Below, piece after piece: positions 50,319 through 53,624 of a DNA stretch of 64,000 nucleotides; the first letter of the stretch is position 1; every line of letters starts with the position of its first letter. The stretch comes from Haliotis cracherodii (lineage: Eukaryota): assembly GCF_022045235.1 (NCBI RefSeq), contig NW_027266297.1, positions 25,916,001 through 25,980,000 of the forward strand. The letters run 5' to 3'. The translations under genes were made by a program, and so were the position numbers. The notes under the pieces are model-generated. The model made no database searches, had not been told where the DNA came from, and saw only the letters and a program-made list of their open reading frames with translations.

Positions 50319-50954
50319 TTACTGGCGCAAAACGAGCGCCAGGGCATGCAATAAATTGTCCGTCAACACACAGAGTCCTTTGTCACTGAGGTGGACGCCC
50401 TCCCAGGCGTACCATGTCTTGTCAGATGTCAGGATCTGGGGATGTGGCACTGTTGTACCGCCGAGCTCTTTGACTCGGTTGGTCAGTCGGCGGTTGATAT
50501 TCTTCCGCATCCCCTCGATCTTTCGTGGATCCCTTGCATCGTGCCAGTAGCGCCTGGGCAGCATTGAGGATACGATGATCTTGGTGTCAGGAAGCTGGAG
50601 TTGTATCCGAAGGATTGATGCCACCATGTCAAGGTAGAGTTGGCTGCCTTTGACCGAGCACAGGTCGTTGGAGCCCAGGTGAATGATGAGGGCTCTGGGG
50701 CTGCGCCGTGTCGCCTTGACCTGTGCATCCAGAATGGTGTCCAGCTCCTTCCACCTCATCCCCCCTCGTGCCAGCCATAGCATCCTCGGTTGGTTCGGGC
50801 TGGTGCCCTTCAGGAGCAAGTACTGCCGTGCCCTGGCCATGTAGCTGGATCCCACCATCCAAACTGTAAACAATAAGAAGTGTAGTAAGTACCATGAAAG
50901 ACTATTTGATTTAATTGTGCAACATTGAATTTGTTGGTAAGCGTATGTAAGCAT
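50319..50954 (-). CDS. SGNH/GDSL-type hydrolase ORF of the Ngaro element
   Basis: Block I VWMVGSS, block II ARGG, block III HLGSND, block V EGVH. The first 30 codons look intron-like (see findings). Confidence 0.85.
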   Translation of the reverse strand: MLTYAYQQIQCCTIKSNSLSWYLLHFLLFTVWMVGSSYMARARQYLLLKGTSPNQPRMLWLARGGMRWKELDTILDAQVKATRRSPRALIIHLGSNDLCSVKGSQLYLDMVASILRIQLQLPDTKIIVSSMLPRRYWHDARDPRKIEGMRKNINRRLTNRVKELGGTTVPHPQILTSDKTWYAWEGVHLSDKGLCVLTDNLLHALALVLRQ

Positions 50955-51834
50955 TGTAGCAATCTGATTTCCACCTGCCGTATTGTTGTATGAGGTGTTC
51001 AGGCACCCCGTTCATGGCTGCTGATGTGGCTGCCCCAATGCGGAAGGAGTGCGAAGAATAGCAAGCCGTGTTTATGTTGCTGTGTGCTAAGGCCTTTTTT
51101 AGGAGTGCCTGGAATTGGTACCTTGTAACGGGGGAATGGTCAAAGTGGACGAATGCATGTTGTGGGCCGGAGGGGCGCGCCTCCAGGTAGTGCTTGATGG
51201 CGACTACCGGACATAGCGGATTACCTGGTATAGGTGACATTGTAACTGTTGTCCCCATCCTGTACTGATCAGACTTTGAGTGTGGTAAATGGATTGAAAG
51301 CTGCTGGGGGTTGCCCGAGAAGCTTAAATTCTGGATGGCGCAACCTGTTTTTGAGGGTCCAGTTTGGACGAGTTCGCTAACCCTAAAGAAACCGAAGAAG
51401 GCTGTGCAGTAGACTGCCTTGAACAGCCTGGCTTCATATGCTGATGAGCATACGTGAGGCAGATTGTTGGTTACTACCTGCAGCAGATCTGCAGTGATCG
51501 GTTTTCTGGTGTCTGGTCGGCCCGCTGATTTGTGTAAGCCGGTTACAATCTTGCCTACCAGGAAATGGTTTGTACAGTCGGTGAGCCCGTGGAATTTGTG
51601 GTGTGAAGACAGGGCTGCAATGTAAGTCTTGACTGTGTTAGGGGAGTGGTGAGTGACTGACAGATAAGCAATAAAGTTTACGACCTGATCCAGCGGGACT
51701 GGCCACACCTCTTGTAGCTGGTGTGCGGACCGGAACTGGTGCAAGGCATTGATGCCTGTTTGGTAAGTGGCCCATGTATTAGTAGACAGAGATTGTTGTA
51801 GGAGTCTGCCGGCTTCCTGCCTCAGATCAGCCAT
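50911..51834 (-). CDS. Tyrosine recombinase (phage-integrase family)
   Basis: FFGFFRVSEL (R), HSKSDQ (K), HSFRIGAAT (HxxR), GRWKS..AYIR (W, Y). First ATG is at 51834; the ORF-track start is GTG. Confidence 0.95.
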   Translation of the reverse strand: MADLRQEAGRLLQQSLSTNTWATYQTGINALHQFRSAHQLQEVWPVPLDQVVNFIAYLSVTHHSPNTVKTYIAALSSHHKFHGLTDCTNHFLVGKIVTGLHKSAGRPDTRKPITADLLQVVTNNLPHVCSSAYEARLFKAVYCTAFFGFFRVSELVQTGPSKTGCAIQNLSFSGNPQQLSIHLPHSKSDQYRMGTTVTMSPIPGNPLCPVVAIKHYLEARPSGPQHAFVHFDHSPVTRYQFQALLKKALAHSNINTACYSSHSFRIGAATSAAMNGVPEHLIQQYGRWKSDCYNAYIRLPTNSMLHN

Positions 51835-53624
51835 ATGTTGCACGGGATAGGTGTGGGGTTCTGGTCCGCGGCTGGTGCTGCCTCTCGGAAGCGTTTGAGC
51901 TGAAACCTCGAGAGAGCATCGGCAATAGTGTTAGCAGTGGAACATACATACTTTGCCTTAAACATAATATTATATCGGAGACACTGCAGGATTAGGCGAC
52001 GGAGTAGGCTCATCACTCTGGGGGCCTTGGTTGACTGCTTGTTGATTATTGTTACGACGGCTTGGTTGTCGCAGTAAAAGAGGACCTTTTTGTTTGCGAG
52101 TTGCTTGCCCCAGATTTGGATGGCCAGTGTGATGGGGAACAGCTCCAGGAGCGTCAAGTCCCGTGTAGTTCCATCCGTCACCCACTGGGGTGGCCATGCG
52201 CCGTTAAACCATTTGCCCTGCATGTAGGCCCCAAAGCCGGCGCCACCCGCTGCGTCTGAAAACAGCTGGAGGAAATCACTGTCCACCCATAGTTGGTCCT
52301 GAAACACTGAAACGCCGTTATAACTCATAAGAAATGTTAACCATATTTGTAGGTCTTCCTTGACCCAGCTGGTAATCCTAATGTGGTGAAATGGTTGCTT
52401 ACCTTTGCTAAGCAGATCGATTAGCCTGCGGCTGAATGCCCTTGCCATTGTTATAGCCCTGCACATAAAGTTAAGCTTGCCTATGAGGGACTGAAGGGCC
52501 CTTTTTGTGACCTTGATGTTACCTGTTGACAGGATGTCTTGGATTTCCCTTGTTGCCTCCTTGATCTTGGGCTCTGGGATTCTGATCTGCATTGCAATGG
52601 TGTCGATTTCCAGCCCTAGGAATGTCAGTTTGGTTGTAGGGCCCACCGTCTTGTCGTGCGCAATAGGAACCCCAAGCTGTTGAAGTGTATTCACGCATCC
52701 GTTGAGGTTGTCTGAGCAGTGGCTGGTGCCTGCTGTGCCCCCCGTTAGGAAGTCATCCAGGTAATGCATGACCGGACACGTTGGAAGATGCGATTGCATG
52801 CACCATTGCAAGAAGGTACTAAACGTCTCAAATATGGCGCAAGATATGGAGCAGCCAAATGGTAAGCATTTATCGAAATAGAACTCACCTTCGAATCTGA
52901 TGCCTAGCAGCTCGAAATCGGATGGGTGGACTGGTATAATTCTAAAGGCCGACTGAATGTCGAATTTTGCTAGTAATGCTCCCTTTCCCAGTTGTTGCAC
53001 CATCTGGGTAGCTTCATCAAATCTGGCGTACACAACGGAGCAGGCCTCTGTGTCTATGAAGTCATTTATAGATTTACCCCTGGGATAGGATAGATGGTGA
53101 ATTAGACGGAATTCCTCCGCATGCTTACCCAGGTGCTGATCATATCCTGGCTGCTTCTTGGGCACCAGGCCTATTGGGGATACTTGGAGGTTGTCTAGGG
53201 GGGTGTCCTTGAAGGGGCCCGCCATCCTGCCAAGGTCGACTTCCTTTTGTAGTTTTTGTTTCACGTAGCCTGCCGTATCTTGGTGTGTGGCTGATCGCAA
53301 GTTTCGTGCCAGGCGACCCGTGCGGCTTCCCTGGAACTCGAGCTTAAAGCCAAAGCTAAAACCTACCCATAAATAATTTGCATCTCTGTAATTGACCCTA
53401 GCATATTGGCGTAAACAGGGTGCCATTTCATTGAGATCCACGGGGGAAGGGGCCATTGAATTTACCTGCCTTGCCGGCTGGTTTTCTGTTAGGAAAGGGC
53501 TGATTGGGCTGGTATGGGGTCGGTTGGACCCCATTCCCTCGAAAGCAGGTCCTAGAGCTATGGGAATGTTTGCCACACTTACCGCATTTGTGAGTGTACT
53601 TACAGTTGACCCTGCTACAGCCAA
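51822..53624 (-). CDS. Reverse transcriptase + RNase H (DIRS/Ngaro type)
   Basis: SPIGLVPKK, FRLIHHLSYP, KFDIQSAFR, LPFG, YLDDF, FLGLEID. RNase H SDAA, ELFPI, DNQAVV, NTIADALSR. Overlaps gag in another frame; true start uncertain. Confidence 0.96.
   Translation of the reverse strand: MAVAGSTVSTLTNAVSVANIPIALGPAFEGMGSNRPHTSPISPFLTENQPARQVNSMAPSPVDLNEMAPCLRQYARVNYRDANYLWVGFSFGFKLEFQGSRTGRLARNLRSATHQDTAGYVKQKLQKEVDLGRMAGPFKDTPLDNLQVSPIGLVPKKQPGYDQHLGKHAEEFRLIHHLSYPRGKSINDFIDTEACSVVYARFDEATQMVQQLGKGALLAKFDIQSAFRIIPVHPSDFELLGIRFEGEFYFDKCLPFGCSISCAIFETFSTFLQWCMQSHLPTCPVMHYLDDFLTGGTAGTSHCSDNLNGCVNTLQQLGVPIAHDKTVGPTTKLTFLGLEIDTIAMQIRIPEPKIKEATREIQDILSTGNIKVTKRALQSLIGKLNFMCRAITMARAFSRRLIDLLSKGKQPFHHIRITSWVKEDLQIWLTFLMSYNGVSVFQDQLWVDSDFLQLFSDAAGGAGFGAYMQGKWFNGAWPPQWVTDGTTRDLTLLELFPITLAIQIWGKQLANKKVLFYCDNQAVVTIINKQSTKAPRVMSLLRRLILQCLRYNIMFKAKYVCSTANTIADALSRFQLKRFREAAPAADQNPTPIPCNIWLI

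What the first reader, a model, noticed from the sequence alone, without database searches (positions are those of the whole stretch)
50319..53468. Predicted spliced Gag-SGNH-hydrolase fusion mRNA in a YR retrotransposon (env-like subgenomic expression)
Seen in sequence (minus strand): the SGNH domain's first strand (VWMVGSS) is immediately preceded by a canonical 3' splice site, tacttactacacttcttattgtttacAG|TTTGG (AG at 50865-50864). The 30 codons upstream look like intron rather than protein. Just after the Gag zinc finger is a donor, GCAG|GTAAAT (GT at 53465-53464). Both sites are phase 1, so removing 53465-50864 (2602 nt, almost all of RT/RNase H plus all of YR) gives an in-frame ~550-aa protein ...KPAGKA-V-WMVGSSY.... 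A second phase-1 donor, TCAG|GTAAGG (GT at 54005-54004), would give a shorter fusion. Established: some Ngaro elements carry a hydrolase ORF, and SGNH esterase domains occur within ORF1p of some CR1/L2-type LINEs. Inference: this element builds the same Gag+esterase architecture by alternative splicing, possibly giving particles a membrane- or lipid-acting module. I do not know of this having been described.
Basis: partly seen in the sequence, partly recalled or inferred. Interest (0 to 1): 0.78.

Follow-up and report, generated by a model that had tools for sequence, protein, structure and literature searches.

The report
Gag-leader splicing in Ngaro retrotransposons
A jumping gene in an abalone appears to make its esterase and its recombinase by splicing a short leader from its first gene onto them, not the whole first protein as proposed, and the splice signals are kept in many distant relatives.

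Summary
The splice sites are at the stated coordinates and both proposed joins are in frame. The hydrolase acceptor (AG 50865-50864) is real: a phase-1 YAG precedes block I in 23 of 23 related families (phase 0: 2; phase 2: 3), 16 of 23 lack an ATG after it, and one RNA-like contig and several RefSeq models use it. The whole-Gag fusion is not supported: a post-zinc-finger phase-1 donor occurs in 1 of 15 families, and neither proposed junction was among 15 of 51 joints shown. What is conserved is a phase-1 donor in the basic Gag leader, before the core (19 of 22 families, 6.5 expected; here GT 54455). RefSeq models join this leader to the hydrolase in a sister abalone family (3 loci) and in a mussel. 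The leader also fits an acceptor before the recombinase (Gln codon CAG in 37 of 37; no ATG in 25). In this family the junctions actually seen come from donors inside the recombinase gene, so the leader-hydrolase join here is inferred. The scan noted shared-leader splicing before on other DNA; my look-ups returned no note on the hydrolase branch.

The parts
49551..55039 (-). Ngaro-type tyrosine-recombinase retrotransposon, all four ORFs open; single copy in the window
   Evidence: Ends from contig joints 55039/49551 in X1 and X8; domains; one tblastn hit per ORF
54817..55039 (-). Terminal repeat A (A1)
   Evidence: Joints 55039/49551 (B then A) and 49698/54817 (A then B) in contigs; no second copy listed in the window among the 20 largest of 41 repeat families
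49551..49698 (-). Terminal repeat B; the A2-B2 part seen in other copies is missing here
53428..54573 (-). Gag ORF, 381 aa: basic N-terminus, disordered leader, core, CCCH/CCHC zinc fingers
54456..54573 (-). Gag leader exon (39 codons + 1 nt), 9 K/R in the first 25 aa; proposed common first coding exon
   Evidence: Aligns to the N-terminus of the leader-hydrolase model P0036, 23 of 42 identical, ending at the same residue
54449..54458 (-). Leader donor ATG|GTGAGT (GT 54455-54454), phase 1; best candidate for the conserved donor
   Evidence: 10.0 bits, rank 6 of 252; a phase-1 leader donor in 19 of 22 families; in frame to hydrolase (220 aa), recombinase (368 aa) and RT (593 aa)
53909..54005 (-).
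   Evidence: Joint 53908/54006, ends CT..AC, run X8 only, marked 'between: not known'; same join in RefSeq model P0019 (read)
53459..53468 (-).
53486..53500 (-). Possible phase-1 acceptor before RT (AG 53487-53486); weak support
   Evidence: Best YAG is phase 1 in 15 of 30 families, p=0.04; 20 of 30 have their own ATG
51822..53453 (-). RT/RNase H ORF, 543 aa from ATG
   Evidence: Pfam RVT_1 E 6.5e-15
51900..51921 (-). Phase-1 acceptor for the recombinase, inside the RNase H motif ADxxSR-x-Q (AG 51901-51900)
   Evidence: Gln is CAG in 37 of 37 families with Gln there (42 have the motif), against 325 of 646 elsewhere in RT; recombinase frame open from it in 37 of 37
50911..51834 (-). Tyrosine recombinase ORF, 307 aa from its own ATG
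   Evidence: Pfam Phage_integrase E 5.6e-8
51773..51775 (-). ATG in a third frame inside the recombinase gene; start of the 203- and 210-aa RefSeq hydrolase models
   Evidence: P0006, P0007, P0008, P0014
51683..51708 (-). Two donors inside the recombinase gene (GT 51708-51707 and 51684-51683) that are joined to AG 50864
   Evidence: Contig 18 of X5 (placed); RefSeq isoforms P0035/P0185 and P0006/7/8/14; not conserved: 6 of 18 loci have any donor in that zone
50864..50890 (-). Pyrimidine tract and 3' splice site of the hydrolase exon (AG 50865-50864), phase 1
50319..50863 (-). SGNH hydrolase exon, 180 full codons; Ser, Gly, Asn, His kept, block V Asp replaced by Glu
   Evidence: Pfam Lipase_GDSL_2 E 1.4e-7; alignment; best solved relative of the family profile 4c1b, E 6.7e-16; model pLDDT 96

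Best explanation
This is an intact Ngaro-type retrotransposon of an abalone. Its downstream genes are made by alternative splicing, as a retrovirus makes env. Full-length RNA gives Gag (and probably RT, route unsettled). One phase-1 donor in the 5' part of gag, before the Gag core (here GT 54455), is joined to a phase-1 acceptor at the end of RNase H (AG 51900) to make the recombinase, or to the phase-1 acceptor after the recombinase (AG 50864) to make the hydrolase. The hydrolase thus gets a start codon and a short basic leader (about 220 aa here), not the Gag core or zinc finger. Shown: conservation of the three signals, use of AG 50864 in a contig and in RefSeq models, leader-hydrolase models in two other families. 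Inferred: the direct 54456/50863 join in this family, RNA support behind the RefSeq models, and a role of the leader as RNA-binding or nuclear-targeting tag.
For: Acceptor: phase-1 YAG within 40 nt of block I with open frame in 23 of 23 families, phase 0 in 2, phase 2 in 3; best AG is phase 1 in 19 of 23 (p=1.7e-6); T at -5 in 18 of 23 and mixed at -4; phase-1 score>=4 in 61% against 0.6-6.7% at four kinds of control anchors. No ATG between acceptor and block-I Gly in 16 of 23. Donor: phase-1 leader donor in 19 of 22 families, 6.5 expected from synonymous shuffles, 0 of 200,000 draws reached it. Recombinase acceptor: CAG 37 of 37 (p=3.6e-11), frame open 37 of 37 against 9 of 37 for the third frame and 12-17% of control windows, no ATG in 25 of 37. 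Models: P0036, three Haliotis cracherodii loci, is a Gag N-terminus plus hydrolase with the junction at the homolog of 54455. Mytilus trossulus P0047 shares its first 82 aa with Gag P0192 and then enters the hydrolase; its isoform P0187 adds a 13-codon piece that P0052 places just after the homolog of the recombinase acceptor. Contig 18 of X5 is spliced into AG 50864; the large run X21 shows no such joint.
Against: No joint from 54456 to 50863 or to 51899 among the 15 of 51 joints shown; contigs in X1 and X8 pass 54455 unbroken and an X1 contig passes the acceptor unbroken (contigs drop rare forms, and the runs are RNA only by guess). In this family the junctions seen use donors 51708 and 51684; none of the 15 of 34 cluster members listed is a leader fusion. 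This family has three strong donors in the leader, two of them phase 0, its recombinase has its own ATG, and block I holds an ATG. Leader limit and score cut-off were set. RefSeq models are predictions; I could not see their read support.
Confidence: 0.65

Rival explanations
1. In this abalone family the hydrolase is made without Gag sequence: RNA spliced from donors inside the recombinase gene (51708, 51684) is read from the third-frame ATG at 51775 (203-211 aa) or from the ATG in block I (179 aa). This can coexist with the best explanation as a family-specific route.
For: These are the junctions seen here: contig 18 of X5, models P0006, P0007, P0014, P0008 in two species, alternative isoforms P0035 and P0185 of one locus; three distinct 179-aa model sequences are listed. 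Four other families carry the hydrolase 5' of gag with its own ATG, so it can exist without a Gag leader.
Against: Only 6 of 18 loci have a donor in that zone, at scattered places. Leader plus this exon stops after 120-128 aa, so the ATG at 51775 needs an internal promoter or reinitiation. A start in block I loses the Trp found in 19 of 24 loci at the head of strand 1. Contig 18 comes from a decayed copy (28 differences in 197 nt, with indels).
Confidence: 0.25
2. One reading: the donor after the zinc finger (53465) joins nearly all of Gag to the hydrolase, giving a 550-aa protein built into particles.
For: The join is in frame, and the donor is a fair match, rank 8 of 252. One more locus, L004, has a phase-1 donor after its zinc finger.
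Against: 1 of 15 families with a zinc finger. Contigs of X5 (52696-53818) and X8 (52100-53773) cross 53465 unbroken; the junction is not among 15 of 51 joints shown. 0 of 150 representative hydrolases and 0 of 17 Gag homologs show Gag core plus hydrolase. Phase-1 donors are common in this element: 9 of the top 14 fit.
Confidence: 0.07
3. The signals are incidental; the hydrolase is read from an internal promoter or is not expressed, and the spliced RNAs are by-products of host splicing on decayed copies.
For: The one spliced contig is from a decayed copy; X1 shows even cover and an unspliced contig across the acceptor.
Against: Phase-locked acceptors in 23 of 23 families, all-CAG codon choice in 37 of 37, and missing ATGs are not expected without selection on splicing; hydrolase motifs are kept.
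Confidence: 0.03

Closest known systems
Ngaro retrotransposons with a hydrolase ORF (e.g. Xenopus DIRS-53_XT; PMC9210276, passages read)
   Same: gag, RT/RH, YR, then an SGNH ORF; split direct repeats of similar size (A 236, B 152 bp there; about 223 and 148 here)
   Different: That paper says the hydrolase has no proven function and has no occurrence of 'splic' or 'intron'; here it is a spliced 3' exon, and the host is a mollusc
ZfL2-1 ORF1p esterase of CR1/L2-type LINEs (PMC3905857, passages read; PDB 4c1b)
   Same: Best solved relative of the family profile, E 6.7e-16 against 2e-8 for the next; there an arginine-rich motif lies before the esterase, and the esterase binds acidic lipids
   Different: There the esterase is part of one unspliced ORF1 with a coiled coil; here it is a 3' exon of a YR element, joined to a basic leader by splicing; no activity tested here
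Spliced env or ORF3 of retroviruses and LTR retrotransposons, including GDSL ORF3 of bdelloid Vesta1 (PMC5408684, passages read)
   Same: 3' accessory ORF expressed from a spliced RNA; that paper says such ORF3s are typically spliced and reports GDSL esterases as ORF3. A few gag codons at the head of env in avian retroviruses are recalled, from no call
   Different: Different order of element; here the same donor also seems to serve the integrating enzyme; the product is a soluble SGNH fold, not a fusion glycoprotein

Membership tests
Ngaro retrotransposons | gag, RT/RNase H and tyrosine recombinase ORFs in overlap | tested here: met
Ngaro retrotransposons | Split direct repeats A1 ... B1-A2-B2 | tested here: inconclusive
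   B-A and A-B joints exist in contigs of related copies (the B-A joint could also be a circle junction); the window copy shows only A and B
Ngaro retrotransposons | No methyltransferase domain after RNase H | tested here: met
   No MT family in the Pfam scan of the four ORFs at E<=0.1; the RT ORF ends 26 codons after ADALSR. No dedicated MT profile was run
Ngaro retrotransposons | Optional SGNH ORF after the recombinase | tested here: met
Ngaro retrotransposons | Placement in the Ngaro clade on RT/YR trees | not tested
   No reference Ngaro or DIRS sequences were held
SGNH hydrolases | Ser, Gly, Asn, His in blocks I, II, III, V and the three-layer fold | tested here: met
   S6, G34, N65, H157 kept, block V Asp is Glu here; fold matches SGNH enzymes, TM up to 0.78
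SGNH hydrolases | Esterase or lipid-binding activity | not testable with these tools
   Needs protein assays
Esterase-class LINE ORF1p | Esterase encoded within ORF1 of a non-LTR element, with coiled coil | tested here: not met
   YR element; the esterase is a separate 3' exon. It may still work alike
Retroviral env | Fusion glycoprotein fold with transmembrane anchor | tested here: not met
   Model and fold search give a soluble SGNH domain; no transmembrane predictor was run
Retroviral env | Expression from a spliced subgenomic RNA | tested here: met
   Conserved acceptor; a spliced contig and RefSeq isoforms; raw junction reads not available

The most novel reading that the evidence does not exclude
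Animal Ngaro elements run a retrovirus-like splicing programme in which one basic Gag leader exon heads Gag, recombinase and esterase. The leader-esterase protein rebuilds, by splicing, the arginine-rich-motif-plus-esterase plan of LINE ORF1p: it binds the element's RNA or particle through the leader and acidic membranes through the esterase, giving an envelope-less element a way into vesicles or between cells.
Probability: 0.2. Interest if true: 0.85.

Novelty: new variant of a known kind. Interest (0 to 1): 0.62.

Why it matters
How YR retrotransposons express overlapping ORFs that often lack a start codon, and what the Ngaro hydrolase is for, are not answered in the papers I could search. 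The result names the exact junctions to look for, gives the likely true N-termini of recombinase and hydrolase (most annotations start them wrongly), and ties the hydrolase to the LINE ORF1p esterase, whose lipid binding has been measured. It also makes a simple test: one donor mutation should remove both recombinase and hydrolase.

Tried and rejected
No whole genome is held for the window, so copies could not be compared directly. Viral contigs gave no relatives. The hydrolase alignment was too divergent for a locus scan; loci were fetched through the recombinase instead, best 80 of 319 confirmed matches plus 10 from genome contigs. One search had a wrong motif pattern and gave nothing; corrected. 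A conserved acceptor before RT is weak (15 of 30) and is not claimed. RT-hydrolase RefSeq models (P0001, P0012, P0015, P0013, P0016, P0017) use a poor donor or joins that do not fit GT-AG on the window sequence; taken as prediction artefacts or deleted copies, not followed. Eight loci seemed to have the hydrolase fused before Gag; it is a separate ORF. Joints 51706/51886 and 51455/51717 have non-canonical ends and were set aside. Look-ups of the scan's notes by sequence and by hydrolase words returned nothing. No complex prediction was sent.
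Full report
What is there. The minus strand holds one intact element from 55039 to 49551 with gag (381 aa), RT/RNase H, tyrosine recombinase (YR) and an SGNH exon. 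Named proteins 99% identical to the hydrolase are from Haliotis. Contigs of public runs join the element's end to its start, and the end of the first 223 nt to a point 148 nt before the end. That fits A1...B1-A2-B2 split direct repeats, as described for Xenopus Ngaro elements with a hydrolase ORF (PMC9210276, passages). This copy shows only A and B.

The frame fit says little about the donors, because 9 of the 14 best donors in the element would also fit (weight matrix from recalled textbook frequencies).

The acceptor is real. I fetched 90 loci through the recombinase. Twenty-three carry the hydrolase within 1.2 kb after YR and fall in 23 families at an 80% YR-identity cut. All 23 have a phase-1 YAG within 40 nt of block I with the frame open; phase 0 has 2 and phase 2 has 3. 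The best-scoring AG is phase 1 in 19 of 23 (p=1.7e-6). The base profile is that of a 3' splice site, and four kinds of control anchor show no such bias. Sixteen of 23 have no ATG between the acceptor and the block-I glycine, so a start must come from an upstream exon. Contig 18 of run X5, from a decayed relative, is spliced into this AG; the large, DNA-sized run X21 lacks that joint.

The proposed donors are not the conserved ones. Among 22 families with enough gag leader, 15 show the zinc finger and only the window has a phase-1 donor after it. L004, left out for lack of a leader, has one too; L060 has one just past its stop codon. Neither proposed junction is among the 15 of 51 joints shown, and contigs of X5 and X8 cross 53465 unbroken (contigs cannot prove absence). 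Donor 54005 is used in X8, but to an AG at 53909, a join also made by RefSeq model P0019. No Gag core was found in 150 representative hydrolases. Among 172 stored hydrolase-bearing proteins only P0002 has one, joined through a YR fragment.

The conserved donor lies in the leader. Nineteen of the 22 families have a phase-1 donor of at least 7.5 bits between the Gag ATG and the core, often the only strong donor in gag; synonymous shuffles predict 6.5 (limits chosen). Here it is GT 54455, after codon 39. A sister family in H. cracherodii has three RefSeq loci whose protein is the Gag N-terminus joined to the hydrolase at exactly that residue (P0036). In Mytilus trossulus, P0047 has the first 82 aa of Gag P0192 and then the hydrolase. 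In the window the same join would give 220 aa. The leaders are basic: 17 of 22 have six or more K/R in 25 residues from the best early Met. Seventeen of 71 hydrolase models with a long N-terminus start likewise, which is weak and mostly unmatched to Gag.

The same donor appears to serve the recombinase. At the end of RNase H the motif ADxxSR is found in 42 of 47 families. In 37 it is followed by Gln, always coded CAG, against 325 of 646 elsewhere in RT (p=3.6e-11); the Ser and Arg codons also lean to pyrimidines. The YR frame is open from that AG to the YR domain in 37 of 37, the third frame in 9 of 37, and 25 of 37 have no ATG there. The AG is phase 1 for YR. The mussel isoform P0187 inserts, after the leader, a 13-codon piece from just behind this site. 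Elements with no hydrolase in the fetched DNA keep both signals. For RT the evidence is weak.

Against my reading. In this family the junctions seen into AG 50864 come from donors inside YR (51708, 51684): the X5 contig, four 203-210 aa models starting at a third-frame ATG, and two isoforms of one H. rufescens locus. None of 15 of 34 listed cluster members is a leader fusion. These donors are not conserved (6 of 18 loci have any nearby), and a three-exon RNA from the leader stops early. X1, the closest run, shows an unspliced contig across the acceptor. So the leader-hydrolase join is well supported for the lineage and only inferred for this family. RNA support behind RefSeq models is inferred from their alternative isoforms, not seen.

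Function. The domain folds as an SGNH hydrolase (pLDDT 96), with Glu in place of the block V Asp. By sequence profile its closest solved relative is the ZfL2-1 ORF1p esterase, which is active, binds acidic lipids and has an arginine-rich motif upstream (PMC3905857, passages). My inference is that the leader gives the enzyme an RNA-binding or nuclear-targeting tag and that it acts on membranes during particle assembly or release. Four families that carry the hydrolase 5' of gag with its own ATG show that the leader is not always needed.

Novelty. Nine library searches and term look-ups in ten papers (passages only, no supplements) gave no report of spliced expression of the Ngaro hydrolase or recombinase. 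Spliced ORF3s, and esterases as ORF3, are known in LTR elements. The founding Ngaro paper and the 2015 review did not appear in my listings and may bear on this. The scan's own notes, read only, describe a shared leader exon in YR elements of other genomes; they are unchecked leads and not support.

Noticed in passing
L032-L034, L040/L041/L044, L043, L079 (e.g. L034 1538-2743): Four families place the hydrolase 5' of gag with its own ATG 6-10 codons before block I. In three of the four a strong donor lies upstream and an acceptor lies before the gag ATG, so the hydrolase seems to sit in an optional 5' intron.
   Followed up: partly
window 53909-54005: 97-nt GT-AG intron inside the Gag core, seen in X8 and in RefSeq model P0019; it would truncate Gag and may be cryptic or regulatory.
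   Followed up: partly
window 50229-54997: Run X21 has a joint that removes all ORFs, and depth at both ends is several times that of the coding part, suggesting non-autonomous derivatives.
   Followed up: no
window 54652-54791: 70-nt tandem duplication in the 5' untranslated region, 93% alike.
   Followed up: no
window 50400-50402: The block V acid is Glu (EGVH) here and in the sister family P0036, where at least 90% of 34 aligned relatives have Asp.
   Followed up: no
L081, L082, L083: Elements with gag, RT and YR lie in contigs labelled as bacterial MAGs; probably host DNA binned with symbionts.
   Followed up: no
P0037, P0041, P0051, P0067, P0079, P0150, P0151: Large proteins (1300-3100 aa) with repeated copies of this hydrolase domain; possibly host genes that took it up.
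   Followed up: no
window 47599-48314, 55170-56343, 58237-58991: A 22-nt minisatellite, a 90-nt repeat array within inverted repeats, and an AT-rich satellite flank the element.
   Followed up: no
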